In this document: positions 4,046 through 59,050 of the stretch, piece by piece
How positions within the stretch are numbered: the first letter of the stretch is position 1
How the letters are laid out: each line of letters starts with the position of its first letter
Assembly (NCBI GenBank): GCA_963849065.1
Contig: CAWKFM010000003.1
Coordinates: 44,292-108,291 of the forward strand
DNA from: an uncultured Acidobacteriota bacterium
Lineage (GTDB): Bacteria > Acidobacteriota > Terriglobia > Terriglobales > Acidobacteriaceae
Length of the DNA stretch: 64,000 nucleotides
Direction of reading: 5' to 3'
Program-made: the position numbers and the translations under genes
Notes under the pieces: model-generated
Told to the model about the DNA's origin: nothing
The model's database searches: none
What the model saw: only the letters and a program-made list of their open reading frames with translations

Positions 4046-4158
4046 AATAGCCAACGCATCGGCTGCATACGGCGATGCCGGGCAGCCCGCAACTTTTTGA
4101 GCGAGCGACCGGCTGATACACTGGCGGTATCGCATCTGTTCCGCTCCGAATCCCACTC

Positions 4159-5352
4159 ATGACGACTCACAAGCATCGCGGGCTACTTCCATTCCTTGGG
4201 GTGGCGAGCGGTGCGAGCGTGGCGACGATTTACTACAACCAGCCGCTGCTGCTGGAGATGAGCCGCACCTTCCATGCCTCCTCCGCCCAGATTGGGACGG
4301 TGGCGGTGGCGACGCAGGTGGGTTATGCGGCGGGGATTCTGGTGTTTGTGCCGATGGGCGACGTGGCGGAGCGCCGCGGACTGATCGTGAAGCTCTTCGC
4401 GGCGGTCACCGTGGCGCTGCTGGCGGCAGGCTTCTCGCCGTCGCTGTGGACCCTGGTTGCGTCCAGCGTGGCGATTGGAATCACCGCCTCGGTCACGCAC
4501 GTGCTGGTCCCGATCGCACCGGAGCTGGCCGAGCCGGACGAGAGCGGACGCGCCATTGGAACCGTGATGACCGGACTTCTGCTGGGAATCCTGCTGGGAC
4601 GGGCCGCCAGCGGCTGGGTGGCTGCGATGCTGGGATGGCGTGCCGTCTTTCTGGCCGCGGCCGCAGTGACCGCAACGTTTGTGCCGCTGCTGCGGTGGAG
4701 GCTCCCGAATCTTCCTCCGGTGCAGGCGGTGAGTTACACAGAGGCAATCGGCTCGCTGTGGAAACTCATCATGGAGCAGCCGACGTTGCGCGAGGCATCG
4801 GCCATCGGATTCCTGATCTTTGCGGCCTTTTCCGCGTTCTGGACGAACCTGTCGTTTTTGCTGGGAACACCGCATTACCGCCTGGGAGCCGGCGTGGCGG
4901 GCAGCTTTGGCGCCCTGGGCGCGGCGGGAGCGCTGGCGGCGTCGTTTGCCGGACGGCTGGCCGACCGCAATGGAGCGCGCTGGGTCATCGCATTAGGGCT
5001 GGCAATGTTGGGCTCGGGCTACGCGGTGCTGTGGTTTGCGGGATACCACATGGCGGGCTTGATCCTGGGCGTGATCATTCTCGACGTAGGCGAGCAGGCG
5101 CTGCAGATTGCCAACCAGACGCGGATTTTCAGTCTTGTAGAAGGCGCGCGCAGCCGGGTAAATACCATCTACATGATCGTATTTTTTCTCGGAGGAGCGG
5201 CTGGTTCGGCCATCTCCACCGCCGCCTGGGCGCACTGGCAGTGGAATGGCGTGTGCGCCCTCGCCCTGGCCCTGATCGCGCTGGCAGGAGTTCGCCACGC
5301 CCTCGGCGGACGCAGAGACGCCCGCTCCCCAATCACAGCCGCATGGTCATGA
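4159..5352 (+). CDS. MFS transporter
   Basis: 397 aa with about 12 hydrophobic helices and an MFS-like D-x-x-E-R-R-G loop (GDVAERRG) after TM2. Confidence 0.7.
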   Translation: MTTHKHRGLLPFLGVASGASVATIYYNQPLLLEMSRTFHASSAQIGTVAVATQVGYAAGILVFVPMGDVAERRGLIVKLFAAVTVALLAAGFSPSLWTLVASSVAIGITASVTHVLVPIAPELAEPDESGRAIGTVMTGLLLGILLGRAASGWVAAMLGWRAVFLAAAAVTATFVPLLRWRLPNLPPVQAVSYTEAIGSLWKLIMEQPTLREASAIGFLIFAAFSAFWTNLSFLLGTPHYRLGAGVAGSFGALGAAGALAASFAGRLADRNGARWVIALGLAMLGSGYAVLWFAGYHMAGLILGVIILDVGEQALQIANQTRIFSLVEGARSRVNTIYMIVFFLGGAAGSAISTAAWAHWQWNGVCALALALIALAGVRHALGGRRDARSPITAAWS

Positions 5353-43737: not shown

Positions 43738-43812
<75 letters not shown>

Positions 43813-43823
43813 GTAATTTCTAG

Positions 43824-43849
43824 AAACCCTCGCCTGCGCGCGAGGGTTT
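43824..43849 (+). terminator. hairpin between the two tRNA genes
   Basis: AAACCCTCGC-ctgcgc-GCGAGGGTTT. There is no clear T-tract, so the function is uncertain. Confidence 0.3.
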
Positions 43850-43906
43850 GCCGTGAGGGGCGCCTGCTCCTCGATTTTGTCCAGTCTTGCAGGATTCGCT
43901 GGAAGG

Positions 43907-43981
<75 letters not shown>

Positions 43982-44126
43982 AAATTCTCCCGCAAATAAC
44001 TGAAAGTGAATGCTTTCCAGAATTTCTCATGATCGGCCTCGTTGTGGCTGAATGGGGAAAAATTGGCCAAAATCAGGCACATTTTGGCTCGAAAGCGGAC
44101 AAAAAGCGGACAATGCTTTTTGCCCC

Positions 44127-45239
44127 TTAATTTTTGCGGGTTCCCTCACCTTGAGGTGCGAATTCGTCAGTATCCATGAGGGTTTGCTCATACTTCAGCA
44201 TCGCTTGCCGCTTGTGTTCAGCCGTGGGGTGGACATACCGCTGGACGATCCGGATGGAGCTGTGGCCGAGGATTGCCGCCAGCGTAGCCAGATCGACCCC
44301 AGCTTGGGCAAGTCTGGTTGCAAAGGTATGACGGAAGTCGTAGAGCACGAAATCGAGAGCCTTGAGGCCCTTCTTCTTGTCCACCTTGATGGCAGCATCG
44401 TGCCCCCGATTGAGACGCACGATGTGCTTTCCTGGCTTTGTAGGGGATGGAAATATCCAAGGCGAGTCCTTCTTCTTGGGGTTCTTTTCCATGCGACGGG
44501 CAAGGATCGACTTGCTCTCAGCCGTCAGGTCGAGCGTCCGCCTCGCCGCCTTGGATTTTCCTTGCCTGATATGGAGCTGTCCCCGTTCGAGGTCTATGTC
44601 TGCCTTGCCGAGGGACAGGACCTCCTCCGGACGCATACCCTGATTCCGCATCAGCCTCGCCAAATCCCAGAGATTCTTGTTTTTCGCGGCTCGCAGGAAG
44701 TAGTCCTTCTCTTCCGCTGCGGTTATTACGTGCATCCTGACCGCATCAGCATCAGACGGAATCTTGACGTTGCGAACGGGATTCTCTCGATGCCACCGTT
44801 GCTTGATTGCATATCGGAAGAACTTCGACAGTGCGTGAAGGTCATGCCGCAGAGTGATGTCGCGAACTTCATGCTCAGTGACTCGCCACGCCTTAAACGC
44901 TTCTACCCTGCCCTCATGAATCAGCGACACCGACTCCCTGCCAAAGAACATCTTTAGGCTCGTGAAGCTGGTCTCGATTCTCAGGAAGCTATTGGGGTGC
45001 GACCTGTGCTCCACCTTCACCCAGTCCAAGAAATCAGTGGCGGCGTCACTGAATTCGCGTACGACCATGTGCCGGGACGGATTTCGTCCCTCAGCCAAGG
45101 CAATGCGATGCTCAGCCTCGAGTTGCTTCGCTCGCGTCTCGTTTTGTTTCGTGGCGGCCAAGTCTGTCTTTCCGTTGTACTCCTTGCCTGCTACCTTGAA
45201 GCGGTAACTCCACTTCCCGCATCGCTTTCTCAGCGGCAT
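44127..45239 (-). CDS. int: tyrosine-type site-specific integrase
   Basis: C-terminal catalytic region (YDFRHTFATRLAQAG, LGHSSIRIVQRYVH) and an N-terminal SAM-like domain. ATG 45239 (GTG 45242 also in frame). Confidence 0.9.
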   Translation of the reverse strand: MPLRKRCGKWSYRFKVAGKEYNGKTDLAATKQNETRAKQLEAEHRIALAEGRNPSRHMVVREFSDAATDFLDWVKVEHRSHPNSFLRIETSFTSLKMFFGRESVSLIHEGRVEAFKAWRVTEHEVRDITLRHDLHALSKFFRYAIKQRWHRENPVRNVKIPSDADAVRMHVITAAEEKDYFLRAAKNKNLWDLARLMRNQGMRPEEVLSLGKADIDLERGQLHIRQGKSKAARRTLDLTAESKSILARRMEKNPKKKDSPWIFPSPTKPGKHIVRLNRGHDAAIKVDKKKGLKALDFVLYDFRHTFATRLAQAGVDLATLAAILGHSSIRIVQRYVHPTAEHKRQAMLKYEQTLMDTDEFAPQGEGTRKN

Positions 45240-45552
45240 CACTTGTCTCCTGTAGTCTCGTTTCCAGCCATGCGTCCACCCGATCTTTCGGATACCAGAT
45301 TCGTCGCCCCACCTTGAGGTAGGCGGGGCCCCTCCGCTGGCATCTCCAATCTGCTAGAGTCGCTGGCGATAAGCCCAAGTTCTGTGCCAGTTCCTCAGGC
45401 GAGATCAAACTATCAGGCAACACGAATAGACCTCGACCCAGTTTCCCCGCACCGGATGGCGGCTTTATGTTGAGCGGCTCAGAGGGACCGAACCTCGTTT
45501 CCATTGGTGGTGCCAACGACGCACCTACGACTGCTCCGCATCTGTGGTTCAC
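45112..45552 (-). CDS. xis: excisionase/AlpA-like helix-turn-helix DNA-binding protein
   Basis: ISPEELAQNLGLSPATLADWRCQRRGPAYLKVGRRIWYPKDRVDAWLE. Alternative start at 45504. The 3' end overlaps int by about 130 nt in another frame. Confidence 0.7.
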   Translation of the reverse strand: MNHRCGAVVGASLAPPMETRFGPSEPLNIKPPSGAGKLGRGLFVLPDSLISPEELAQNLGLSPATLADWRCQRRGPAYLKVGRRIWYPKDRVDAWLETRLQETSDAAEKAMREVELPLQGSRQGVQRKDRLGRHETKRDASEATRG

Positions 45553-46368: not shown

Positions 46369-46575
46369 AAATTTCCTCTCGGTTGGAAAACATACCATAC
46401 ATAGTCATTATATTCCTACAATGATTTTTATGTACGGGCTGGAGGGCCATCATTGGCAGGTGAAATCGCCGCGCGACTCCACACTACTCCGAGAATCGAT
46501 ACGCCGGATGACGGACGGCGGACTGGCGATGAGCGGGATGCGAGGTTTGCGTTAGTCTTAAGGGAGGAGACCGTG

Positions 46576-47397
46576 ATGCAGGAATCAGCCGCGTTGCCGC
46601 CTATCAATCCAGATTCGCTCCAGCAAACTGTCGACACCTTCCGTGTTTATTGCGGCGTTGTACTCCTATCATTCGCCCAGCATGGTCAGGGGCTTCGAGA
46701 GACTATCGCGCGAAGATTCGTCGCCAGAGGAATGATTTGCACGCAGAACATTTTGGCTGTATGGCGGGCCGGAAGCGAGCATGACGCCTGGATTCTCCAT
46801 CGGTCGCTAATCGACCGCCTTTTCCATCTTCGTTACCTGGGTGAAACGGGCGGGTTCTCTGAATTTGACGATTTTTCGTTTGCGTCATTATACGAAGCCC
46901 GGCAGCGGCTGCTGGCAGACCCAGACATGAGGAGCGAGCTTCCGGAAAGCCTGAAGGATACACAGCAACGAGACAAGGCGCGATACGAACAGATCCCTCC
47001 CAGGCAATCCCGATGGCGGCGTCCGAAAGCAAGGGACGTGGCAAAGCAGATGGATCTCTGCTTTCTATACTCGTGCGCTTACGATTCTGCCTCGGCTCAA
47101 ATCCATCCAACGTCCGATGAAGGCGACGCTGATTTCGAGATATTGACGAAGCCGTTAGGGACGGTTGCTCTTCCCAGCTCGATTGTCGTTACAAATTCAA
47201 TCCTCATTCACGCCATACTCGTTCAAGAAGCCCTGAATGTTAGCGAGATGCGCTGGCACTCCCTCGCCTATGATTTCCTAGACCATGTGCTTTTGTTTCT
47301 CAAAACCGGGGAACAGCGGTTTCAATCGACCATGCGTGAGATCGCTCAGTTCTGGCCCACATCGCCGCTTTGCAAGCCGCCCAGCGGCAAGAACTGA
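46576..47397 (+). CDS. hypothetical helical protein (273 aa), first gene of the unknown trio
   Basis: ATG 46576 lies 6 nt after GGGAGGAG. I recognise no confident family. There is a weak resemblance to AbiV/DUF5677-like helical proteins (ILHRSLIDRLFHLRYL ... YDSASAQIH). Confidence 0.6.
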   Translation: MQESAALPPINPDSLQQTVDTFRVYCGVVLLSFAQHGQGLRETIARRFVARGMICTQNILAVWRAGSEHDAWILHRSLIDRLFHLRYLGETGGFSEFDDFSFASLYEARQRLLADPDMRSELPESLKDTQQRDKARYEQIPPRQSRWRRPKARDVAKQMDLCFLYSCAYDSASAQIHPTSDEGDADFEILTKPLGTVALPSSIVVTNSILIHAILVQEALNVSEMRWHSLAYDFLDHVLLFLKTGEQRFQSTMREIAQFWPTSPLCKPPSGKN

Positions 47398-47523
47398 TCG
47401 ACACGGCTGCTGAGTTGGATGCCAATTCTCCGACGAACGCTGAGTTTAGCTGCCGCCGCCGTTACCGCCCGTTGATTGTCGGTAGGTTTGTCGTACCATT
47501 ATATCGGCCGCACATGGAGAATA

Positions 47524-48168
47524 ATGTCAAACCTTGATTGGTTCTTCCGCAGCAGCCGTTCCGCACCGAACCGTGGCGAACGTTTCAGCCAGCTCTACTT
47601 GCTACGTAGGGACATCGACACTTGTTTCGGAGTCAATCCAAATACAGGATTACCGTTCTGCGTCGTAGACCCGACCACAGGTGCGCGCACCAGCTGCGAG
47701 GCGATCTGGCCTGGCACGATGGCCATTCTTGCTGGCATTGACCTTCTTGGCAAGTTCCGTGCGGGGACCGACGTAACTCGGGGTCCGGGTAGTGTGAGTG
47801 TCAGGCAGCGATTCGTAGATTTTTCAAGGCTATATCTGAGTCTCTCGGAGACAGACGCATATCTGGTCTACCATCTGCGGAACTCGTTACTGCACTCGTT
47901 CGGTCTAAATTCCGAAAAGACAGACGACAAAGGCACAGTCACCGCGACGTACGACTTCATTCTTAGCCGCGGTGCGGGCAAGCTGCTTGAACATTTCACA
48001 AGCGACTTCTACCGCGTGGACGTGCAGTGTCTTCGTGACCTTTTCGAACGAGCTATTGCGAGGTACGAAGCCGAGCTACGTGACAATTCGCGCAGCGATT
48101 ACCAAGATCTTAATGATAAGTTCAATGCAATGTTTCCCAAGCACGCGAAGCCCATGAGCGTGATTTAG
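47524..48168 (+). CDS. hypothetical protein (214 aa) with an Rx4H HEPN-like motif
   Basis: ATG 47524 follows GGAGA. The motif YHLRNSLLHSFGL fits the HEPN R-x4-6-H signature. Confidence 0.6.
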   Translation: MSNLDWFFRSSRSAPNRGERFSQLYLLRRDIDTCFGVNPNTGLPFCVVDPTTGARTSCEAIWPGTMAILAGIDLLGKFRAGTDVTRGPGSVSVRQRFVDFSRLYLSLSETDAYLVYHLRNSLLHSFGLNSEKTDDKGTVTATYDFILSRGAGKLLEHFTSDFYRVDVQCLRDLFERAIARYEAELRDNSRSDYQDLNDKFNAMFPKHAKPMSVI

Positions 48169-48293
48169 TTAGAACCTACTTCGGGACAACTTCAGCATAC
48201 GGGCAGCTGTACAACCCGAAGGCTATTGAGTCGGGTGCAATGCGCGGTCTTAGAGGCCGTCGAGTGTGACTTGGCGGAACCGGAGAAGAATGA

Positions 48294-51200
48294 ATGGCGC
48301 TTTCATTGGATGATCTAGTTAAGGACGGTAGGCTAGAACGGCTGTTTTCCAAGCACTGCCGCGACTGCGCTCTGCAGCTTTGGGTGCTACAGATAAAGTC
48401 CGACAACGGAATCGAGAACCGACTCCTCTACGGACGACTTCTTCCCTACAATTACTCTAACAACACTTGGTCCGCCGCGGAGGATGACCATTTTGAATCG
48501 GTTGGGGAGCACAAGGCTCAAATCATTCGACTCAGCCTGTACATCAAGAGCACCGGCACCGAGGCGTTACTGAAACATCTGAGTGAGGGCCACGCCGTGT
48601 CGCGCATCAGCGAGGACTTGAAGCTGACGCTGTCCCCGAAGCTAGCCGAGCGGATAGGAACGACAACGCTCAGTTCACACTTGGTTTATCGCCCAGTCGC
48701 CTACCTGCTGAATCGAGATTCGCGAGATCGAACCGCACCTTTGAGTCCACACGGGGGCGCGGGCGCATTCAGTGCATCTCTGACTCCAACCGATAAGATA
48801 GCATTGCTTCGCATTGGATCGGATTGTGATGAGGCTTTGGCGACATTTATTGTCAAACAGCTGGATTTCGACACTGGCTTGGACTTCGGGGACAGAGATC
48901 TCGGCCGATTAGGTGATTTGGAGCTGTTGGTCTTTCCGACCCTGGACGACAGCGAGCGGGAACTGTTGAGCGTGGGCTGGAAAGTAAAACCCAGAGTTCT
49001 CGCCGTGAAGCTGAATCCGATTCAACTCCCGCGCTATGACAGATTCCATGTCCGTCTGAGTGTATTCAACGACAGCCAACTCGTTCATTCAAGTATCGCA
49101 ACTGTCGAGTGCGTCGAGGGCCGTGAATTTGAGTGCGAGTTCGAGGTGCCTGAGCAACTGCGCACGGTTGTCGACGAAACGGAGGTCGAGATTCATGGAT
49201 CATCCTCGATCAACGACGACCGAACTTGCGATCTGTGTTGCAGATGGCGGGTCGGCTATGTACGGGAAATTACCGTCAACGGCCATGTGAACGGACGAGG
49301 AGGTGGCTCTGTCCGGCTCGGCTGGCTCGAAAAGGTGACAAAATCCGCAGCCGCTTCGAAACGGCTACAAGCGGCTCAGACCATCAATCAGGGAGGCACG
49401 GGGTTTTCGACTCACGTGGGAGACCGAAAGGCCGATCCATGGGTTCCCATTAACCGTGGCGTCAGATCACTATTTGCCCGAGTGCATCCGCCGCAGTCGG
49501 ACGGACGTTTTTTTGAACGTCTGAGCGAAGGCAGCGGCTTGGGACGCTTGGAGTTTGTGGAATGGGTAAAGGCCCTATTGGTTAGGCACCAAAATCATCA
49601 GGTCATAATTTTTGACCCTTTCTTTGAGGACGCAGGCATTGGACTCGTCGTTCCAAATGCGGGGAGCCACGGCGATTACATCGTTTTTACATCGCTGCCC
49701 AAGCCCGCAACGCAAGAAGCCAGCACTCGGATCAACAATCTGCTGGCTAGCTGCGAGCAGCTCAAGCCTTTGATGAGGGGGATCAGATTGCGCGTGTACG
49801 GTCTGAAGTACGGAACACTACACGACCGTTATTTCCTAATCGTCGGTCAGGACGGATTACCAACCGCCGGCTTCCATCTCTCGAACTCCATCCAAAAGGC
49901 AAATGAGAATTACCCTCTGCTGATTACGCCGATACCTCCTGACGTCTTGCTCAAGGTAAACAAATACGCGTCCAAACTTCTAACGCAAGCATTTGAGGCA
50001 TTTTCTAGTACCGAAGCCGATACTTCAAGGGTGCAGCTACTCTTCGACTCGAAAGCCGCGCTCGCTACGTCCCCTAAACGCATTGAACCGTTGAGGTTTC
50101 TCGACAAAGGCGTCGCTGGCGATGTCCTGGCCGGGTGGACGGGGGAGCAGTCGCTTCGGAGTTTGGAAGGCGACGCCCTTAGGGAGAAAATGAGGGACTT
50201 GGGCTTGCTGAACGGCGAATCGCTTGTTCTAAAGGAGGCCCCTGGGCTTAAGGGCTGCGTCGATCAACAGGCAGGGAACTTCACGAACTTCGGCGCCAAA
50301 TGGGACGTACTCGGCGAGATCCTGGCCAACTCGCATGCGGGAAATACGATCCATGCAGTCGAGCTATCGGCGGAAACGGATTTTCTGACCTTTTTGGCTG
50401 AGTTTTTGAGCGGCTCATTTGGTCGAGTACATAACGACGAGGTCGATGCACCAATCGCGCACGTCGCTAGCACCTACTTCAAAGACGCTATTGAAACGCT
50501 GCTTGCCGCATCCCATCAGCCTGAGCACTTTTTCCATCCCGTTAAGTACGCCGTCCTGAGCTGGTCGGAGTTCTTCGCCGTACAAATCCTGTGGCACCAC
50601 GCTCCAGCTGCATTACTTTCAATGACAGAAGCGCAAGCTGCAACAGTGCCGGAGGATAGTAGGCAATCCGATGCGGTTAAGCTTTCCTTGCTGAGTCAAA
50701 TAGTGAGTGAGATCGCACTCGGGGCGCAATTCGGACTTGCCGGCTTACAGCGGGACCGACTGATTTGCAGCCCCAATGGCTTACTTAAGTGGATGGGGCT
50801 GAATTCTCTCGAATCGCAGCTCCAAAAACCGAATGGCGTGCGCGAGGTCGTTCAATATACGGCGTCGTTCAGTCACAGGGAGAGGATACAGGTACTGGGT
50901 TGGATGACCCAACACTCTGCGGGGCGACAGAATGGCGAGACTATTTATCGTGGTCTGATCGATTCTCTCCATGAGGTTTTACCGCGGGCGCTAACCGCGG
51001 AGGATGCTGATCTCTTGGTGGATTCCATGCGCGGACATATGCGGGCCCTAGGCTGGGGTGAGCCATGGCTTTATCGGGACGTAATATCCCCTCTGTTCGT
51101 AGATGGACGCGTTTCCGCAGATGACCTTTGTCGTATTTGGGTCAAGGAGTTGCTCGCTTATTTGGAGCAAGCCCTCAGGGATGAAACGGGCATCTTCAAG

Positions 51201-51578
51201 AGAAGCGCAGAAGGCAGGGTCACAGAGGTAGCAGCGTTTCTGTTCGGTCGCAGCGGCCTTCAGCAGCAAAGGGAGAGCGTAAAGGTGCTTAGGTCAGTAC
51301 TCACCAGAGTTCGGCGAGACGTTCATCAGCCTCTAGCTAGTACGTCGAACTGGAACAAATGGAACATTTCCATAATCGTTGCAATGTGGATTTTCGCTTT
51401 TACGAAGTGGGCCGCGCACTTCCTGGTGAAGCCTAGCGAAATTGAACCGGAGCTAGAACGACTTTCAACTGACGCACGTCTCGTTGCCCTCGTCAGGCCG
51501 GTAATCGACTGGCAGTCAGACCGAGGTGTAGAGCCAGGCGCGCTTGCACAGTTTATAGAAGAAGTGGGGGCAATCTGA
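48294..51578 (+). CDS. large hypothetical protein (1094 aa) with a central MIT_C/PLD-fold-like module
   Basis: ATG follows GGAGAAG. The motif pair QVIIFDPFF ... GTLHDRYFLIVG resembles the xDPYx...HDRxI pair of the MITD1 C-terminal PLD-like domain (from memory). The large flanking N- and C-terminal regions are unassigned. Confidence 0.7.
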   Translation: MALSLDDLVKDGRLERLFSKHCRDCALQLWVLQIKSDNGIENRLLYGRLLPYNYSNNTWSAAEDDHFESVGEHKAQIIRLSLYIKSTGTEALLKHLSEGHAVSRISEDLKLTLSPKLAERIGTTTLSSHLVYRPVAYLLNRDSRDRTAPLSPHGGAGAFSASLTPTDKIALLRIGSDCDEALATFIVKQLDFDTGLDFGDRDLGRLGDLELLVFPTLDDSERELLSVGWKVKPRVLAVKLNPIQLPRYDRFHVRLSVFNDSQLVHSSIATVECVEGREFECEFEVPEQLRTVVDETEVEIHGSSSINDDRTCDLCCRWRVGYVREITVNGHVNGRGGGSVRLGWLEKVTKSAAASKRLQAAQTINQGGTGFSTHVGDRKADPWVPINRGVRSLFARVHPPQSDGRFFERLSEGSGLGRLEFVEWVKALLVRHQNHQVIIFDPFFEDAGIGLVVPNAGSHGDYIVFTSLPKPATQEASTRINNLLASCEQLKPLMRGIRLRVYGLKYGTLHDRYFLIVGQDGLPTAGFHLSNSIQKANENYPLLITPIPPDVLLKVNKYASKLLTQAFEAFSSTEADTSRVQLLFDSKAALATSPKRIEPLRFLDKGVAGDVLAGWTGEQSLRSLEGDALREKMRDLGLLNGESLVLKEAPGLKGCVDQQAGNFTNFGAKWDVLGEILANSHAGNTIHAVELSAETDFLTFLAEFLSGSFGRVHNDEVDAPIAHVASTYFKDAIETLLAASHQPEHFFHPVKYAVLSWSEFFAVQILWHHAPAALLSMTEAQAATVPEDSRQSDAVKLSLLSQIVSEIALGAQFGLAGLQRDRLICSPNGLLKWMGLNSLESQLQKPNGVREVVQYTASFSHRERIQVLGWMTQHSAGRQNGETIYRGLIDSLHEVLPRALTAEDADLLVDSMRGHMRALGWGEPWLYRDVISPLFVDGRVSADDLCRIWVKELLAYLEQALRDETGIFKRSAEGRVTEVAAFLFGRSGLQQQRESVKVLRSVLTRVRRDVHQPLASTSNWNKWNISIIVAMWIFAFTKWAAHFLVKPSEIEPELERLSTDARLVALVRPVIDWQSDRGVEPGALAQFIEEVGAI

Positions 51579-51599: not shown

Positions 51600-52826
51600 C
51601 TATGCGGCAGCCATGGGAATCACCTCACCGAACGGTGCCGGATGATCCTTGGTGGCCGCCCATAGGACTGGATGGTTCGGTGCGGCGTCTGGAAAGGAGC
51701 CCTCAAGGTCGGTGAAGACCACGAGCGCCTGCGGCTGGATCGAATGCTCCTCGATGTATTCAAAACAGGGGCAGAAGCTGGTCCCACCGCCGCCTACTGG
51801 TTCGAGCGTAATCGGCTCGCCCTGTTCGAAGACGGCGGCGTTATGGACCCTGGTGTCGAAGTAGAGGACATGCACCCGCTGGGGCCTCCGCTCCGAGATG
51901 ATGGAGTTCAGTTCATCCTGGAAAAGCCCGAGCTGGCGGCGGTTGATCGAGCCGGAGCAGTCCACGCCGACCACGATTTCACCCACGCCATCCTTGCGAA
52001 TGCTTGGCAGGTACAGGCCTGAGGCAATGTGGCGCCGGTTGGGAGACGACCAGGAGTAGTCCTCGGGGATTGCCGCGGCGAATGAATTCCGGAGTGCGGC
52101 CCGCCAGTCCACGGTTGCCCGATCCGCCGCCTCCACGGCACGGCGCATGCCGCCGGGAGCTTTGCCAGCCATGCGAGCGACCAATTCGGCCTGTTCAACA
52201 GCTCCGGTCCAGCTCATCTGCTGCTTCTCGATCTGGTCGCTGGTCGCCGACGCGCCTTCCTTGTCGGGGTTGGGCGCATCGATGACCTGGCCAAAACCGC
52301 CGTCCGTCACTGGAACCTTGTGCGCTGGAGCCCCTTCGTCTCCCTGGGCCGAAGGATCTCCGGACCCGGAATTCGTGGAGCCGTCGCCACTGCCGCCGGC
52401 AGCGTCGCCGTCTTTGTCCTCGGCGATCAAGTTGTAGATCCGCTCTGCGCTCAGGTTCCGAAATGCCGGATCATAGAGTGCACCGGCAGGGAGAGCGAGG
52501 TTTGCATCCCGAACGAGCGGGTTGATGGCGTAGTCGCAGGCGACGTTCCAGCGTTTTGCCGAACGCGTTCCCCGCCGGGTATGGTGTTGCAGTGCCGGAT
52601 GCATGACTTCGTGCGCCAAGCAGCCAAGCAGCTCCGGCGGCGTCAGTTTCGCCACGAATTCAGGGTTATAGAACAGGGAGACGCCATCGGTCGCCATGGT
52701 GTCGATCGATGGTGTCTCCACGTCCTTGAGCCGCAGAATCAGAACCCCAAAGAATGGGAAATCGAGCAGCAGTTTTGTCCGGCCTTGCTTGAGCCGCACG
52801 GCTGGGGAGAGTGTTCTTGCAGTCAT
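51600..52826 (-). CDS. VWA-domain protein with N-terminal putative metallopeptidase domain (DUF2201-like)
   Basis: HEVMHPALQHH (HExxH), VACDYAINP, and VWA MIDAS-like VGVDCSGSI. Alternative start at 52913. Confidence 0.75.
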   Translation of the reverse strand: MTARTLSPAVRLKQGRTKLLLDFPFFGVLILRLKDVETPSIDTMATDGVSLFYNPEFVAKLTPPELLGCLAHEVMHPALQHHTRRGTRSAKRWNVACDYAINPLVRDANLALPAGALYDPAFRNLSAERIYNLIAEDKDGDAAGGSGDGSTNSGSGDPSAQGDEGAPAHKVPVTDGGFGQVIDAPNPDKEGASATSDQIEKQQMSWTGAVEQAELVARMAGKAPGGMRRAVEAADRATVDWRAALRNSFAAAIPEDYSWSSPNRRHIASGLYLPSIRKDGVGEIVVGVDCSGSINRRQLGLFQDELNSIISERRPQRVHVLYFDTRVHNAAVFEQGEPITLEPVGGGGTSFCPCFEYIEEHSIQPQALVVFTDLEGSFPDAAPNHPVLWAATKDHPAPFGEVIPMAAA

Positions 52827-53099
52827 AAGTTGGCCCCGTGTGGTTGCTTCAGTTCTGGCAATGCGCTTGCCATTCTGATTCGTATTTGGTTGGTGATGTC
52901 TGGGATACAACAAAAGTGGACTTCCAAATCATTGGCGGGCTGTAGTCTATTCGTGCGAACAGTAAATCACGCGGTCCCAGCGAGTAGCTTCCTGTTTTTG
53001 CCCGTCTTAGCAGAACTGCTCACACTAATGTGATTTTGTGTAATTCCTTTTTGTCGTTGCAGAGTATTATTATTTTTTCCAAAAAAGTGATAGGGAGTC

Positions 53100-54923
53100 A
53101 TGATTGAACATCTTAGTGTGAGCCGTGCAGCCTATTTCTACAGGCGCAAGAAGCGTTTCTCAAATGTCGCGATCGACACGCTTTTTAAGACGCTGCGGTC
53201 GAATGCCAGTACGCCTTCAAGGAACTTATTCCGGGTCGATCGCGTTGCGTTCAGGAACTCGAGATATTCTGCAATATGCTTTTCGTTCGAGCGTTCTCCC
53301 GCATTCCTCGACAACGAAGCCGAAGTTATTGAGTGTATCTTCGGGTTTTTACTGATCGTGGAGAAAGGCGATTTCGTAGCCGTTCTTAAGTCAGGTCTCG
53401 ATCTCCCCTCGGCCTTCAAGTCTAATTATCTCGACAAGGTCGGCAGCGAGCGGGTCGAGCGCGCCATCGCCCGACATGATGCGGTCTTCGAGAAGCTGCG
53501 ACTTAAGAATATGTCTACTTCGAAGCTCGCGCTGCGCTCCAAGACGCTTGAGGCCACTGATCTGGTAAATGCGGTGGCGACGTCAAGCGCCAGCCGCTTC
53601 GCGCCGCAGGGCTACAGTGTGCGGCGGTCCGATGGTACCTATTCGGCGACGCCTAGTACGGGACGTATCTCTATCCGCGCTGACCGGGCAGGCTACGAGG
53701 AGATTGTACGTTGGGCCAGCGAGGTTATGGATTTGCTCGCAGCCGACAGTGGAGAGATCTCGGCCTTCATCCGAAACTTCGCTCGACCGATCGACCTGTC
53801 TGCGATCCCCAGTGGCGTGAGACCAACTTATGTTGCAATCGACGTGCCGAGTCTTGCCAGCGTTTTGTTGGAGGCGGGGGAACGTACCGTCCGGCTTGTT
53901 CGGCAAAATCAAAGCAGCTTCGTCGAAATGACCAAGGTCGAGATCGATCACATTCTCGAGGAACTCGACCGAAGCTTCCCCATACAGCCCGAGCAGATAC
54001 AGAACCATATTGTGCATCCGGACGACCAAGCTCGAATCGGCTTGGTTAAAGTGGGCAAGACGCGAATCTCCCTGCCAAGCTTCACGCTGCCCCTGTTAAC
54101 GAGTATTTTCGTTGAAAATGCCGCCCTTCCGGTTGGGGCCGACCCCGACCGCAGGCCACTCACCCGCTATCTCGATCGCGAAGACCTTTTCACCGTCCTC
54201 TTCAACGATTTCGCGCTCGCTTACATTGATGGCTCCTTGTACCGGGACGAGGCGCTCCTCGGCGGAGGCATGGACTTTCTTCGCCATCTACAAGCGGCGC
54301 TTCCGCTTGCCCAAACGACCAGCGAGAAAGGAGAATTCGCTGCTGGCCAAGAAGCATTTGACGATACGTCGGTATTTCGGGCCATCGTCGACGACATTGC
54401 ACGCGACGCTGATGTGCTGCTGTGCGATGACCTTGGCGACGAGTGGGCAGACTTTATCGGTATCAGCACCGTGACTCGTCCTGTGATGGTTAGTTTCTAC
54501 CACGCCAAGCATGGGGAGAGATCGCTCAGCGCCTCAGCCTTTCATGATTCAGTGGGACAGGCAATTAAGAATCTCGGGCGCATGACGCTGCCATCTGAGG
54601 CCATGCCAGCCAAATATGCGTCTTGGGAGACGCCCTATCGCGGCGCCGGGGCAGTAACCGCAATCCCAAGAATGATACGCGGCGGTGGACGGTTAGAGAT
54701 TGAACATAAGATTCAGGAGGTACGTAGCGCGCCAGACCTGCTAAAACGGGTCTTTATTGTCACTTCGTCGCTGAGCCGAGCGCAGGTCGAGTACGCCTTC
54801 ACAGCCGCTGCTGCGGGCGAGCCACTTTCGGCACACTTCGTCCAGCTTTATTGGTTGCTCATGTCCTACTTCTCTGCTTGCACTGAGATCGGTGCGATTG
54901 GCTATGTTGTGTGTCAGCCTTGA
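53100..54923 (+). CDS. hypothetical protein (607 aa) with a PD-(D/E)xK-like C-terminal signature
   Basis: ATG follows AGGGAG in an AT-rich divergent promoter region. VLLCDDLGDEWADFIGIS-x12-VSFYHAKHG fits D...(E/H)xK nuclease cores. The overall architecture recalls the 'sporadically distributed' TIGR04141/DUF6119 family (memory only). Confidence 0.65.
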   Translation: MIEHLSVSRAAYFYRRKKRFSNVAIDTLFKTLRSNASTPSRNLFRVDRVAFRNSRYSAICFSFERSPAFLDNEAEVIECIFGFLLIVEKGDFVAVLKSGLDLPSAFKSNYLDKVGSERVERAIARHDAVFEKLRLKNMSTSKLALRSKTLEATDLVNAVATSSASRFAPQGYSVRRSDGTYSATPSTGRISIRADRAGYEEIVRWASEVMDLLAADSGEISAFIRNFARPIDLSAIPSGVRPTYVAIDVPSLASVLLEAGERTVRLVRQNQSSFVEMTKVEIDHILEELDRSFPIQPEQIQNHIVHPDDQARIGLVKVGKTRISLPSFTLPLLTSIFVENAALPVGADPDRRPLTRYLDREDLFTVLFNDFALAYIDGSLYRDEALLGGGMDFLRHLQAALPLAQTTSEKGEFAAGQEAFDDTSVFRAIVDDIARDADVLLCDDLGDEWADFIGISTVTRPVMVSFYHAKHGERSLSASAFHDSVGQAIKNLGRMTLPSEAMPAKYASWETPYRGAGAVTAIPRMIRGGGRLEIEHKIQEVRSAPDLLKRVFIVTSSLSRAQVEYAFTAAAAGEPLSAHFVQLYWLLMSYFSACTEIGAIGYVVCQP

Positions 54924-55357: not shown

Positions 55358-56716
55358 ATGCGCACCCGTAGGAGCGAATGCGTGAGCCTTTACAACGACC
55401 AACAAGAGTTCCTGCGCAGCTTACGCGATCTGATCGAGAACCGTCATCGCAAGTTCGCGGGTGCGCAGTTTAGAGTTGCGTTCGTCCGCGATGAAAAAGG
55501 TGTAAACCAATTCCTCACCGGATGCGCACTGTTGCTTGAAAATCAAGCAATCTCCCGTCCTGCACAGGACTATAGGTACATTGTATTGGCGGAGGAGTGG
55601 GTAGAGGGTGACGAGGCAGTCCTGCACAGGATCGAACAGATTGTCAGCGGCACAGGAGCAATCGCTAATGCAGCGGTGGGCCGCACATTTACGCACGCCA
55701 CGCTGACGCGCAAGTTTGATGCGGCTATACGGGGATGGGGAGGTTGGGAATTCTCTAGTCGCGTGGACCACACAGCCCAGGAGCGGGAGACTTACCTGCG
55801 TCAAGAACCATTGCTTGCGTTTGGGCTGAGGCCCTATAACTCTGCTTTCGAGGCCATCCTAAGATGGGTTTTCGAGGAAAAGAACACCGATTTCTATCCG
55901 CCTGGAAACAGAGCTCCGAACCAAGGCGAGTTTCTTACACTGGTCGCCGACACGCGTGCTCGGATCGTGAGGGCTGAGTGGCTGCCAGGTCTCGTCAACG
56001 CCGAAGTTGAACTGGGAGTCGATCCAAGAGAGGTTGAGGCTCAGTTTCTATTTGCAGGGGCGGAAGACGATACCCGTACACTGAACACGGGTTCGCTCTC
56101 CTTAAAGTGTGAAGTCCCGGAAGGCACGCGCACCACGAGGCTCATGCTGGTCCATTCGACCAATGACTGTATCTCTAAGATCCTACTGAATGGAGAGTAC
56201 GACACATACGGACCTCAGCCGTTGGCTCTCAGTGCAATCAGAAAAGCAGAGCTCGACCTGAAAGAAGGTGAAAACGACCATGTGGAATATAAACCATGGG
56301 TTTCGCCAAAGTCTCCGGAGAAGGAAGCAGAGCTCGTCGAAACAATCATCGCATTTGCCAACACTGGTGGTGGACGGCTTTATGTTGGAGCCGCGGATAG
56401 CGGCAACCCACTCGGTGACACGGCTCTGTCGAAAGCGTTCAAGGTTGAATCCGATATGGCCGCGATCCAGCAGGCTGAGAGAATCAAGAGCCTCAAACGC
56501 GAGAAGATAAAGCCAGTGCCCCCGGTCCGAGTGGAACTGATCACGGTTTTTGGCGAGCGCCTAGTTCTAGTTGAAGTCGAGCGCGGGAGCAGGCGACCAT
56601 ATTCAACATTTGAAAACAAAGTATTCGTCCGCAAGGGCGGGAGTAACAGGCTCGCGGATCCACACTCGGAGCTTCCCGCCCTCAGCCCACAGTCTCTGCT
56701 GCCGGATGGCTCCTGA
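55358..56716 (+). CDS. hypothetical protein (452 aa) with a C-terminal AlbA_2 (Schlafen-like, 'divergent AAA') domain
   Basis: EGENDHVEYKPW...ETIIAFANTGGGRLYVGA...RPYS...VFVRKGGSN matches the AlbA_2 pattern. The ~300-aa N-terminal region is unassigned. Confidence 0.65.
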   Translation: MRTRRSECVSLYNDQQEFLRSLRDLIENRHRKFAGAQFRVAFVRDEKGVNQFLTGCALLLENQAISRPAQDYRYIVLAEEWVEGDEAVLHRIEQIVSGTGAIANAAVGRTFTHATLTRKFDAAIRGWGGWEFSSRVDHTAQERETYLRQEPLLAFGLRPYNSAFEAILRWVFEEKNTDFYPPGNRAPNQGEFLTLVADTRARIVRAEWLPGLVNAEVELGVDPREVEAQFLFAGAEDDTRTLNTGSLSLKCEVPEGTRTTRLMLVHSTNDCISKILLNGEYDTYGPQPLALSAIRKAELDLKEGENDHVEYKPWVSPKSPEKEAELVETIIAFANTGGGRLYVGAADSGNPLGDTALSKAFKVESDMAAIQQAERIKSLKREKIKPVPPVRVELITVFGERLVLVEVERGSRRPYSTFENKVFVRKGGSNRLADPHSELPALSPQSLLPDGS

Positions 56717-56880
56717 TTTGGAGGATGTGTGAAGGAATATAGCGTCGATTTCACCAGCTCTCCCTCTGGTCGGAAGCCGATCACTGTGGCAATAGGATTG
56801 GTTTCCAATGCACTGTTGAAACTCGATACAGTGGTTGTTGGATTGTATTCGGTCGATTGAAGCACTCGGTACGGATCTGC

Positions 56881-56942
56881 AACCATAAAATGGCCGCTAA
56901 TGATTACAGCCATAAATTGGCCGTTCTGGCCAACTTATGGTT
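56881..56942. repeat. three copies of a ~14-nt motif (two direct, one inverted) between convergent genes
   Basis: AACCATAAAATGGCC (56881-95), GCCATAAATTGGCC (56909-22), and GGCCAACTTATGGTT (56928-42), which is the reverse complement of AACCATAAGTTGGCC. Confidence 0.6.
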
Positions 56943-56964
56943 GTAGTGTCAGGGGAAAGATTTG

Positions 56965-57996
56965 TCATGCGATTAGCTCCATGTAATCCGACATTCTCAC
57001 CAGAATTTGATCCACTCCGGGTGCTGGCGCGGGTTGGGGTGCCGGATCGGTTGGCTTCGGATCGGGCATGTGGACCGCCATGGCCGGAACCTCCGCTGTT
57101 CCGGAGACATGGCCGATGGCCGCAGATTCATCCAAGGCGTCATAGCCGCGATGCTTCATCGCGTGCTTGATCTTGGCTGCGAGTTCGTTCGCGATTCCCG
57201 CCGCCCGAGTGCGCGCCGCGGGATGCTGGGCGAGGTCCTGGCGGGTAAACCTGGAGAGCCGGGAGTTTGTCTCCTGCGCGAGCGCCGTTAGTTCTTCGTC
57301 GTTGGTTACGTTCAACCGTGGAACGAGATCGGCGATCTCGGTTACGTTGCGGAGAGTGGACGTATGCAAACGGGCTTTCGGCCGCTCCAATTGCGCGGCG
57401 AGGTGGGCGACCGCCTGTATGAGGCGCGACCACAACTCGGACGTGGCGCGCGTGAGGGACTGCTTCACCTGCTGATCGATCTCGCGGGCGACGCGAGCCT
57501 TCTCCTCCGCGCCAAGCGTGACGCGGAAATCCTCGCCACAGGGAATGGGGAGAATGTCGGTCGTCAGGTCGAACTTCTCAGTGAGCTGCGACCAGTCCGG
57601 GTAGTCGCTATCGCGGTACAGAAGGCCAAGGCTGTTGCGGGCCTGTTCGCGATAGGTTGGATAGGCGTCGAGAAACTCTCGCACCAACTGTTCGAATGCC
57701 GTCTTGAACTCGCTCATCTGGCTGGTGAACTCGAAATAGAGGTGGGACGGGAGCAAGCGGTAGCCCTCGTCCGACCAGGGCAGAGTCACTTTGTAGAAGT
57801 ACTGGCGGATCTGGCCTGCGAGGTTGCGCAGTTCCTCCAGCTTCTCGGCCTGGTCGAGCAGATGCTTGTTGTAGCGGCCGGCGTTCGAGTTTGCTTCGTG
57901 GGACTGCGCTACCTCCTCAGACACCCGCCTGTCGAACTTGCGTGCGCTCCACATCGTGATATGAAGACAGATCAGCATTGCTTTGTCGGAAATCAT
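56965..57996 (-). CDS. DUF3150-like protein
   Basis: N-terminus MISDKAMLICLHITMWSARKFDRR resembles the DUF3150 'WSGRK' start. It lies directly downstream of the AAA gene. ATG 57996 lies within ORF 56965..58230. Confidence 0.55.
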   Translation of the reverse strand: MISDKAMLICLHITMWSARKFDRRVSEEVAQSHEANSNAGRYNKHLLDQAEKLEELRNLAGQIRQYFYKVTLPWSDEGYRLLPSHLYFEFTSQMSEFKTAFEQLVREFLDAYPTYREQARNSLGLLYRDSDYPDWSQLTEKFDLTTDILPIPCGEDFRVTLGAEEKARVAREIDQQVKQSLTRATSELWSRLIQAVAHLAAQLERPKARLHTSTLRNVTEIADLVPRLNVTNDEELTALAQETNSRLSRFTRQDLAQHPAARTRAAGIANELAAKIKHAMKHRGYDALDESAAIGHVSGTAEVPAMAVHMPDPKPTDPAPQPAPAPGVDQILVRMSDYMELIA

Positions 57997-58039
57997 TTCG
58001 TTTTCAAGCCTCCAGACGTAGCCCTGGATCGGTCCAGAG

Positions 58040-59050
58040 CTACGCGAGTAAATCGCTGTGAGTGATGGCGAATTGGGTGAATTCGGGGGTGGTCGCAATG
58101 GCCGGGTCACGGAGCAGAGCATCGCGCATGGACAGGACCTGCAGCTCATCCGGAAGACGCTCGAGGTAGAGCTTCGCCTTCGCAATCGAGCTATCAGTGA
58201 TGCGGCGGCCGAGTGCGGTGGCAATTGCAATCTGGGCCGACGGATCGCTGGGCAAGGGCGCGCCGGTTGGGTTCAGGAGAATCTCGTCAATCGAAGGCAG
58301 GGCGTGAAAAAGGTTAAGGAAGCCGATGAACTCCGCGGCTACGCCGTCACCCACTGCGCCTTGAATAAGGTGCATGAGCAGCATCTCGTAGACGTCCGCG
58401 GTGACGTTGGCCTTCCGGGCGTCAATTCCGTCCATCGCCCTGGATACCATTTCCCAGGAGCGCGGCGTCGGCCAGGCGTTGACACCCGACCGCACGGCCG
58501 AGTCGTGCAACAACTCCGTCCGGAAGCGAAGAAATGCGATGATTTCCGGCCTGATCCCTGCCTTGCCGGCCCAGATGCACCACTCGCCGAGATCCGGTTC
58601 CAGCGTGAGATGCAGGAAGCGGTTGAGCAAAGGGCGCGGCATGGAATAGCTGACGCCACGCTCGGAAGCGGGATTGCCCGCGGCAAGCACCGACCATCCA
58701 TCGGGGAGCCGATAGTCGCCAAGCGCACGATCGAGAACGAGCTGATAGCAGGCGGCCTGCGTCATCGGTGGCGCGGAGGTCAATTCATCGAGAAAGAGTA
58801 TGCCCTCGCCGCCTGTGGGGAGGAAATTCGGCGTGATCCATTCCGTGCGGTCGTCCTTGATGCGCGGCAGACCACGGAAGTCGACGGGATCGAGCTGGAC
58901 GGCGCGTACATCAATAAAGTCGCGCTTCAACTGCTGCGCGACCTGCTTAACGAGTTGGGATTTGCCGACGCCACAGGCGCCCCAGATATGGAGCGCAACG
59001 TTTTGAGGGACTGCGGTGATAAGCGCTTCAACAAGGTGCGAAGGTTTCAT
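58040..59050 (-). CDS. MoxR/CbbQ-like AAA+ ATPase (AAA_5)
   Basis: Walker A GACGVGKS, Walker B ILFLDELT, and AAGNP followed by the sensor region. Confidence 0.85.
   Translation of the reverse strand: MKPSHLVEALITAVPQNVALHIWGACGVGKSQLVKQVAQQLKRDFIDVRAVQLDPVDFRGLPRIKDDRTEWITPNFLPTGGEGILFLDELTSAPPMTQAACYQLVLDRALGDYRLPDGWSVLAAGNPASERGVSYSMPRPLLNRFLHLTLEPDLGEWCIWAGKAGIRPEIIAFLRFRTELLHDSAVRSGVNAWPTPRSWEMVSRAMDGIDARKANVTADVYEMLLMHLIQGAVGDGVAAEFIGFLNLFHALPSIDEILLNPTGAPLPSDPSAQIAIATALGRRITDSSIAKAKLYLERLPDELQVLSMRDALLRDPAIATTPEFTQFAITHSDLLA

What the first reader, a model, noticed from the sequence alone, without database searches (positions are those of the whole stretch)
46576..51578. Candidate undescribed three-gene defense/abortive-infection-like module (273 aa + 214 aa + 1094 aa)
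Three co-directional genes, each with its own Shine-Dalgarno (GGGAGGAG, GGAGA, GGAGAAG), are transcribed from an AT-rich divergent region (46399-46575). They end 21 nt from a convergent gene. I recognise none as a housekeeping or MGE-maintenance family. The middle protein has an Rx4H HEPN-type motif, and the giant protein has a PLD-fold-like DPF...HDRY pair embedded between about 460-aa and 500-aa unknown regions. Small helical proteins paired with a giant multidomain protein, in the most AT-rich part of an island next to other immunity genes, is the classic footprint of a phage-defense operon. I cannot match it to any named system from memory.
Basis: inference. Interest (0 to 1): 0.8.

Follow-up and report, generated by a model that had tools for sequence, protein, structure and literature searches.

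The report
Juno defence gene, not a trio
The 1094-aa gene belongs to the VPA1262 family, named Juno in a 2026 preprint and shown there to block phages on its own; the two small genes in front of it are unrelated genes that occur without it elsewhere, so this is a stack of separate immunity-type genes in an integrated island, not a new three-gene system.

Summary
The three co-directional ORFs, their ribosome-binding sites and the quoted motifs are real. They are not a conserved module. The 1094-aa protein is a full-length member of NCBIfam NF040699, the VPA1262 family (1077 bits, cutoff 325). [quoted passage not shown] None of 85 other Juno loci carries a relative of either upstream gene, and no neighbour family recurs in more than 6 of 78 loci. 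Orf1 is a DUF5677 protein. Orf2 belongs to an unnamed family of about 200 aa with a conserved RNxxxH motif. Each of the two occurs elsewhere without the other, and orf2 relatives sit as inserts inside phage tail, baseplate and portal/terminase modules. In Juno relatives at 17-28% identity, eight of the ten invariant residues lie in residues 441-545 (DP, HDR, S-x-S, T). This is an alpha/beta domain whose motif order and strand order resemble the phospholipase-D fold, but every statistical test was sub-threshold. My inferred mechanism is a variable C-terminal solenoid that senses phage and a PLD-like hydrolase that acts after dimerisation. The HEPN reading of orf2 rests on the motif only.

The parts
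46576..47397 (+). orf1, 273 aa, a DUF5677 protein; independent gene, function unknown
   Evidence: Pfam PF18928, E 8.6e-17, 62 bits against a cutoff of 27. 117 homologues. Invariant residues include R51, R76, R81, R149, H177, N207, E218. Relatives lie in other islands without orf2 or Juno.
47524..48168 (+). orf2, 214 aa, member of an unnamed family of about 200 aa with a conserved RNxxxH motif; independent gene
   Evidence: 327 homologues and no Pfam, NCBIfam, PHROG or PADLOC family. The AF2 model is confident, pLDDT 92.8 and pTM 0.90. No significant PDB neighbour.
47878..47895 (+). RNSLLH motif of orf2 (R119-H124)
   Evidence: Translation. R119 and N120 are invariant and H124 is at least 90% conserved in 109 sequences. 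The motif sits at the C-terminal end of predicted helix 109-124.
48294..51578 (+). orf3, 1094 aa, Juno (VPA1262 family) single-gene anti-phage defence protein
   Evidence: NCBIfam NF040699, 1077 bits against a cutoff of 325, residues 26-1033 against profile positions 1-1025 of 1026; NF040700 N-terminal domain, 415 bits. Family phenotype reported in bioRxiv 10.64898/2026.08.01.741415.
48294..49256 (+). Juno residues 1-321: beta-rich N-terminal region, tandem beta-sandwich-like
   Evidence: AF2 secondary structure. Weak Foldseek hits to C2 and Ig-like sandwiches. Mean pairwise identity 23-25% among distant members.
49581..49991 (+). Juno residues 430-566: conserved alpha/beta core, PLD-like (candidate catalytic domain)
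   Evidence: Eight of the ten invariant columns of the whole protein across 41 members at 17-28% identity lie here: D441, P442, H510, D511, R512, S530, S532, T545. Mean pairwise identity is 40% against 17-25% elsewhere. Strand/helix order is b-a-b-a-b-b-b-a-b-a. One divergent member hits Pfam PLDc_2 at E 8.9e-4, 19.6 bits, below the cutoff of 27.
49614..49622 (+). DPF (D441-P442-F443), end of the first strand of the core domain
49821..49832 (+). HDRY (H510-Y513), the HxK-like position with R in place of K
49881..49889 (+). SNS (S530-S532), the GSxN-like position
50091..51575 (+). Juno residues 600-1094: all-alpha solenoid, the most variable part (candidate sensor)
   Evidence: AF2 model. Best Foldseek hits are armadillo-repeat proteins, E about 1e-3 to 1e-2. 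Mean pairwise identity 17-20%. For cyanobacterial relatives tblastn aligns only residues 1-577.

Best explanation
The interval holds three separate genes stacked in an island integrated next to tRNA-Gly/tRNA-Cys. It is not a three-gene system. [quoted passage not shown] (Shown) Neither upstream gene accompanies Juno anywhere else, and the DNA shared with 79%-identical Juno genes starts at most about 75 nt before the ATG and ends at the stop codon. (Inferred) Juno is a one-protein sensor and effector. N-terminal beta-sandwich domains and a fast-evolving C-terminal armadillo-like solenoid would recognise a phage component. The only strongly conserved part, residues 430-566, is a single-copy phospholipase-D-like hydrolase domain with the motif DP ... 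H-D-R-Y-x5-D ... S-N-S-x-Q. Single-HKD PLD enzymes such as Nuc, BfiI and Zucchini need two copies to build one active site (established knowledge of that superfamily). I therefore expect Juno to be switched on by dimerisation or oligomerisation after sensing, and then to cut nucleic acid, or less likely phospholipid, which stops phage replication or kills the infected cell. (Inferred) orf2 is a stand-alone toxin or abortive-infection-type gene, possibly a HEPN-like RNase, that also travels as an insert in prophages. orf1 (DUF5677) is a further island gene of unknown role.
For: Family membership: NF040699 at 1077 bits against a cutoff of 325, full length. Phenotype of the family as a single gene. 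No partner: tblastn and profile HMM searches find no orf1 or orf2 relative in 85 other Juno loci with flanks of up to 6-8 kb on each side. The commonest neighbour family occurs in 6 of 78 loci. Cassette limits. Defence-island context of the family: among the largest neighbours of Juno in 46 genomes are mad3 (6), mad8 (5), OLD/GajA/AriA (4-6) and PtuA (4). In the window, PDC-S71 and a Schlafen-domain gene follow. Core domain: invariant residues concentrate in 441-545, with 40% identity there against 17-25% elsewhere; PLDc_2 is the best Pfam hit for a divergent member, E 8.9e-4, collinear from the first strand to the H-D-R position; the top hhalign alignment to E. coli ClsA places HDRYILI on HTKSVLV; a 99-column collinear alignment to an eight-domain Cls/Pss profile has P = 0.01; the secondary-structure order fits. 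Variable solenoid. Independence of orf2 and orf1.
Against: The PLD assignment fails every formal threshold. The window protein has no Pfam hit. Profile searches of PDB sequences find nothing. Whole-model Foldseek shows no PLD fold among the top 50 hits. hhalign weakens to P = 0.098 with a richer query. The motif has R for K, and the acidic residue is displaced from the canonical +7: usually +8 in divergent members, D520 (+10) in the window protein. No data here or in the preprint show the substrate, the trigger or the oligomeric state. Co-transcription of the three genes in this organism is not excluded: same strand, no terminator-like site in the gaps, and similar GC3 of 0.595-0.605. The phenotype comes from Pantoea and Vibrio homologues whose sequences I could not compare directly with this one.
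Confidence: 0.72

Rival explanations
1. In this lineage the three genes form one operon that works together. For example, DUF5677 and the RNxxxH protein would regulate or extend Juno.
For: Same strand; no terminator-like site in the two 125-nt gaps; nearly identical GC and GC3. The same arrangement appears in an independent sequencing run, but the sequence is identical, so it is probably the same organism.
Against: Zero co-occurrence in 85 Juno loci, 12 orf2-family loci and 10 orf1-family loci. Juno relatives at 77-80% identity stand alone behind unrelated or divergent genes. Shared DNA starts at most about 75 nt upstream of Juno. Juno alone protects.
Confidence: 0.07
2. orf1 and orf2 form a two-gene toxin-antitoxin or defence pair (a DUF5677 partner plus a HEPN-like toxin) that merely sits upstream of Juno.
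For: They are adjacent and co-directional. orf2 has a conserved RNxxxH motif. One orf2 relative follows a minimal nucleotidyltransferase, as in MNT-HEPN pairs. The two closest DUF5677 relatives are also followed by a small gene.
Against: That small gene is unrelated to orf2. Other DUF5677 relatives have no orf2-family gene downstream. No orf2 locus contains a DUF5677 gene. The gap is 126 nt. Profile-profile comparison shows no relation between the two families.
Confidence: 0.1
3. The conserved Juno core is not a PLD-type hydrolase. It is either a different enzyme or a non-catalytic assembly or ligand-binding domain, and protection arises another way, for example by sequestering a phage protein.
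For: All PLD tests are sub-threshold. The motif departs from HxK(x)4D(x)6GSxN. Strongly conserved segments also lie outside the core, at 141-162 and 381-407.
Against: The invariant polar residues H, D, R, S, S and T cluster in one small domain. PLDc_2 is the top Pfam hit, and its alignment runs collinearly up to the H-D-R position. The strand order matches.
Confidence: 0.3

Closest known systems
Juno / VPA1262 family (V. parahaemolyticus VPA1262, WP_005477100.1; P. agglomerans WP_397323501.1; bioRxiv 10.64898/2026.08.01.741415)
   Same: Full-length match to the NCBIfam family model. About 1100 aa. A single gene with no conserved partner. Carried in mobile elements next to other defence genes.
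   Different: It comes from a high-GC environmental bacterium whose nearest relatives are in peat and bog metagenomes and Smithella/Syntrophorhabdales MAGs at 64-80% identity. It has not been tested. Its identity to the two tested proteins is unknown because I could not retrieve them.
Single-HKD phospholipase-D-family nucleases (Nuc, BfiI, Zucchini) and PLD-domain defence proteins (Mokosh MkoB, DISARM DrmC); named from my own knowledge, not tested here
   Same: The order of elements: first strand ending in (D)PYF, then helix-strand-helix, then three consecutive strands carrying H-x-basic and a Ser/Asn-rich turn. There is one copy per polypeptide, which implies dimerisation.
   Different: R replaces K. 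The acidic residue is displaced from +7: usually +8 in divergent members, D520 (+10) in the window protein. S-N-S-x-Q replaces GSxN. The domain is embedded between beta-sandwich and solenoid domains, with no helicase partner. Similarity is below all thresholds.
HEPN ribonuclease toxins and abortive-infection proteins (AbiV, Csx1/Csm6, MNT-HEPN pairs), compared with orf2
   Same: An R-N-x3-H motif with N after R, conserved across the family. A small, mostly helical protein. One relative follows a minimal nucleotidyltransferase gene. Mobile, stand-alone and phage-borne.
   Different: No HEPN-clan Pfam hit in any of 109 members. Foldseek hits to AbiV (E 3.3) and Csx1 (E 6.8) are not significant. 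A four-strand beta insert follows the motif helix. There is no MNT partner in the window.
Pfam DUF5677 (PF18928), compared with orf1
   Same: Matches above the gathering cutoff. Found in islands next to restriction, helicase and recombinase genes.
   Different: No function is known. A DUF5677 gene tested in Enterococcus was not among those reported to give protection.

Membership tests
Juno / VPA1262 family | Full-length match to NCBIfam NF040699 above its cutoff | tested here: met
   1077 bits against a cutoff of 325; residues 26-1033 against profile positions 1-1025 of 1026.
Juno / VPA1262 family | VPA1262 N-terminal domain (NF040700) | tested here: met
   415 bits against a cutoff of 80, residues 76-564.
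Juno / VPA1262 family | Acts as a single gene, with no conserved partner gene | tested here: met
   The commonest neighbour family occurs in 6 of 78 loci. Single-gene constructs protect.
Juno / VPA1262 family | Anti-phage protection phenotype | not testable with these tools
   Shown only for the Pantoea and Vibrio homologues.
Phospholipase D (HKD) superfamily | HxK(x)4D(x)6GSxN motif | tested here: not met
   The family has H-D-R-Y ... S-N-S-x-Q. The K position is R, and the spacing to the acidic residue and the Ser/Asn turn both differ.
Phospholipase D (HKD) superfamily | Pfam PLDc or PLDc_2 match above the gathering score | tested here: not met
   The window protein has no hit. The best family member scores 19.6 bits against a cutoff of 27, E 8.9e-4.
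Phospholipase D (HKD) superfamily | PLD fold by structure comparison | tested here: inconclusive
   Whole-model Foldseek shows no PLD among the top 50 hits, which the larger domains dominate. A domain-only search could not be run. The secondary-structure order is compatible. hhalign gives P = 0.01 to 0.098.
HEPN superfamily (orf2) | Rx4-6H motif | tested here: met
   RNSLLH; R119 and N120 invariant, H124 at least 90% conserved.
HEPN superfamily (orf2) | Sequence-profile match to a HEPN-clan family | tested here: not met
   0 of 109 members. No PADLOC, NCBIfam or PHROG hit.
HEPN superfamily (orf2) | HEPN helical-bundle fold | tested here: inconclusive
   The model is confident, but the best HEPN hits, AbiV at E 3.3 and Csx1 at E 6.8, are not significant.
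DUF5677 (orf1) | Pfam PF18928 match above the gathering score | tested here: met
   62.1 bits against a cutoff of 27.1.
Hypothetical three-gene system | Co-localisation of the three families in other genomes | tested here: not met
   No co-occurrence outside the window's own sequence.

The most novel reading that the evidence does not exclude
orf2 represents an uncatalogued single-gene toxin or abortive-infection family. It is about 200 aa, has conserved RRD, D, R and RNxxxH residues, and has a confidently predicted fold without a PDB neighbour. It moves between prophage structural modules, conjugative elements and defence islands. It would be either a very divergent HEPN RNase or a new fold, and it is absent from Pfam, PADLOC, NCBIfam and PHROGs.
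Probability: 0.25. Interest if true: 0.55.

Novelty: new member of a known kind. Interest (0 to 1): 0.3.

Why it matters
The finding mainly shows that the candidate three-gene system breaks down into a known single-gene defence (Juno) and two unrelated neighbours, so it should not be pursued as a new system. Two useful by-products remain. First, no mechanism has been published for Juno. The conservation analysis narrows the likely catalytic centre to ten invariant residues, eight of them in one PLD-like domain (D441, P442, H510, D511, R512, S530, S532, T545), and identifies the C-terminal solenoid as the variable, probably phage-sensing part. This gives direct mutants to test. Second, the orf2 family is a widespread, unannotated, phage-borne gene with an enzyme-like set of conserved residues, and it is a reasonable candidate for a defence or toxin screen.

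Tried and rejected
1. A PADLOC scan of the three proteins gave no hit; the v2.0 library (2023) has no model matching Juno.
2. Pfam at relaxed thresholds found nothing consistent on 26 and 41 full-length Juno members or on 109 orf2 members.
3. PDB sequence and profile searches found nothing for all three proteins or for the Juno core.
4. Foldseek of the whole Juno model gave only weak armadillo and beta-sandwich hits. Foldseek of orf2 against PDB and BFVD gave nothing significant apart from two uncharacterised phage proteins at E 0.01-0.03.
5. hhalign found no relation between orf1 and orf2, or between orf2 and a neighbouring RiboL-PSP HEPN protein.
6. hhalign of the Juno core against E. coli ClsA, ClsB and an eight-domain Cls/Pss profile gave collinear but non-significant alignments, unstable with query depth; the reversed control gave P = 0.46.
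I replaced it with contig look-ups and a viral scan.
8. A viral scan for DUF5677 found nothing.
9. A search for the island's att repeat found nothing inside the window.
10. The representative search with the Juno core listed only Juno-like proteins among the best 150, so it did not bridge to annotated PLD proteins.
Full report
OBSERVATION. Three + strand ORFs lie at the stated coordinates: 46576-47397 (273 aa), 47524-48168 (214 aa) and 48294-51578 (1094 aa). Each is preceded by the quoted purine-rich site 4-6 nt before its ATG. The last ORF ends 21 nt before a convergent ORF at 51600-52913. The quoted motifs translate as stated. The 'AT-rich' description holds only in relative terms. The divergent region is 53.7% GC and the three genes are 53-54%, against 62.8% left of the tRNA genes. 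Another kilobase of the island (56001-57000) is lower at 51.9%. The two gene-to-gene gaps are 126 and 125 nt, and the simple scans find no terminator-like or sigma-70-like site in them.

SETTING. tRNA-Gly (43738-43812) and tRNA-Cys (43907-43981) are followed by a tyrosine integrase (44127-45242, - strand) and an HTH_17 excisionase-like gene. GC content drops at this point. Downstream of the three genes lie a DUF2201 metallopeptidase/VWA gene, a 607-aa PADLOC candidate PDC-S71 (E 9e-119), a Schlafen AlbA_2-domain protein and a MoxR-like AAA ATPase. The region is therefore cargo of an integrated element. Its right end is not in the window.

WHAT THE GIANT GENE IS. Pfam, PADLOC and PHROGs give nothing. 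NCBIfam NF040699, 'VPA1262 family protein', matches end to end at 1077 bits against a cutoff of 325, and the N-terminal domain model NF040700 also matches. A literature search found a preprint dated 3 August 2026 (bioRxiv 10.64898/2026.08.01.741415). It renames this family Juno. [quoted passage not shown] The preprint gives no mechanism, and no other paper in the library describes the family.

IS IT A THREE-GENE MODULE? No.
- A scan of one genome per species returned 78 loci with Juno relatives at 35-66% identity, with up to 6 kb of flank on each side where the contig allowed.
- Contig look-ups added relatives at 77-80% identity.
- tblastn, and then profile HMMs built from 109 orf2 relatives and 100 orf1 relatives, find no orf1 or orf2 relative in any of the 85 Juno loci. 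The only exception is a Logan contig identical to the window.
- Clustering all neighbouring ORFs within 3 kb shows that the commonest neighbour family occurs in only 6 of 78 loci.
- The 79%-identical relatives sit behind a divergent radical-SAM gene or small unrelated genes.
- DNA similarity to the window begins at most about 75 nt before the ATG and ends at the stop codon.
- A PADLOC scan of the largest neighbours of Juno in 46 genomes finds MADS components, OLD/Gabija/PARIS-type ATPases, Septu PtuA and others. The family is a typical single-gene occupant of defence islands.

THE TWO SMALL GENES. orf1 is a DUF5677 protein (PF18928, E 8.6e-17). Its closest relatives, at 84% and 78% identity, are followed by a conserved 192-aa gene unrelated to orf2. 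More distant relatives have no orf2-family gene downstream: the 59-60% relative (L100/L101) is followed only by PadR and ABC-transporter genes after a gap of about 500 nt, P0291's locus has no called gene after it, and P0317's sits beside a large serine recombinase. One study tested a DUF5677 gene in Enterococcus and did not list it among the protective genes.

orf2 has 327 detectable relatives of about 190-220 aa in many phyla and matches no family in any library. R119 and N120 are invariant, H124 is at least 90% conserved, and L27-R28-R29, D73 and R96 are also invariant. Its contexts differ every time:
- after a RiboL-PSP HEPN gene and before an HNH gene;
- 50 nt after a minimal nucleotidyltransferase gene;
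- beside a type III restriction system in a conjugative element;
- inside phage structural modules, between sheath/tube and tape-measure genes, between baseplate genes and a TIR gene, and between portal and terminase genes.

The AF2 model of orf2 is confident (pLDDT 92.8, pTM 0.90). Foldseek finds no significant PDB neighbour: AbiV scores E 3.3 and Csx1 scores E 6.8. Against BFVD it finds only two uncharacterised phage proteins. The HEPN idea therefore rests on the motif and one MNT-adjacent relative.

HOW JUNO PROBABLY WORKS. An AF2 model built from 116 sequences (mean pLDDT 77.6) shows four regions:
- a beta-rich N-terminal region (residues 24-321);
- a low-confidence but conserved stretch (323-416);
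- an alpha/beta domain (417-568) with the order b-a-b-a-b-b-b-a-b-a;
- an all-helical C-terminal half (600-1094).

Foldseek on the whole model gives only weak hits, to armadillo repeats and to C2/Ig sandwiches. A search of 1.8 billion representative proteins with the core profile found 423 clusters at E of 0.001 or better, and the 150 listed are Juno-like. Aligning 40 of them at 17-28% identity with the window protein leaves ten invariant columns in the whole protein: G207, W424, D441, P442, H510, D511, R512, S530, S532 and T545. Mean pairwise identity is 40% in the core, 23-25% in the N-terminal part and 17-20% in the solenoid. For cyanobacterial plasmid homologues, tblastn aligns only residues 1-577.

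The core motif order is DPYF at the end of the first strand, then H-D-R-Y-x5-D, then G-F-H-L-S-N-S-x-Q-x-A. Together with the strand order, this resembles the phospholipase-D fold. The supporting statistics are weak:
- One divergent member hits Pfam PLDc_2 at E 8.9e-4 (19.6 bits, cutoff 27), collinear from the first strand up to the H-D-R position.
- The top hhalign alignment to E. coli ClsA places HDRYILI on HTKSVLV.
- An eight-domain Cls/Pss profile gives a 99-column collinear alignment at P = 0.01. This falls to P = 0.098 with a deeper query, and the reversed control gives 0.46.

I therefore say that Juno probably works like a single-HKD PLD enzyme, but I do not file it as a member of that superfamily. 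Single-HKD enzymes form their active site across a dimer (established knowledge of Nuc, BfiI and Zucchini). From this I infer activation by dimerisation after the variable solenoid or the beta-sandwich domains bind a phage component, followed by phosphodiester cleavage. Substrate, trigger and outcome (direct interference or abortive infection) are untested.

VERDICT. The defence flavour is right. The three-gene system is refuted. The giant gene is a new, untested member of a family already named and validated. Residual novelty lies in the unannotated orf2 family and in the mechanistic predictions for Juno.

Noticed in passing
window 53100-54923 (+): The 607-aa protein matches the PADLOC candidate defence family PDC-S71 end to end (E 9e-119). 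It has no Pfam domain.
   Followed up: partly
window 55358-56716 (+): The 452-aa protein has a C-terminal Schlafen AlbA_2 domain (E 5e-19). It is another likely defence gene in the same island.
   Followed up: no
window 51600-52913 (-), 56965-58230 (-), 58040-59050 (-): A DUF2201 metallopeptidase/VWA gene, a weak DUF3150-like gene and a MoxR-like AAA ATPase look like backbone genes of the integrated element. They are separated by the PDC-S71 and Schlafen cargo.
   Followed up: no
window 43738-45552: Left end of the island: tRNA-Gly, tRNA-Cys, a tyrosine integrase and an HTH_17 excisionase-like gene. No att direct repeat lies inside the window, so the right end is beyond 64000.
   Followed up: partly
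L095 5935-6516; L099 5863-6441: The two closest DUF5677 relatives are each followed, after about 40 nt, by the same conserved 192-aa gene (MEDDFEIRW...). It is unrelated to orf2 and could be a different partner for DUF5677.
   Followed up: partly
L091 4642-5651: An orf2 relative lies 50 nt downstream of a 102-aa NTP_transf_2/Polbeta gene. This is the arrangement of MNT-HEPN toxin-antitoxin pairs, seen once in about seven independent contexts.
   Followed up: partly
L088/L102 5001-5645; L104 3980-4549; L105 about 4001-4555: orf2 relatives sit as inserts inside phage structural modules: between tail tube and tape-measure genes, between baseplate genes and a TIR-pentapeptide gene, and between portal and terminase genes.
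   Followed up: yes
window 48714-48779 and 49434-49514 (Juno residues 141-162 and 381-407): Two segments of Juno are strongly conserved in sequence (SPHGGAGAFSAS; DPW...P..S...FF) but predicted with low confidence. They may be interface or ligand-contact loops.
   Followed up: no
   Followed up: no
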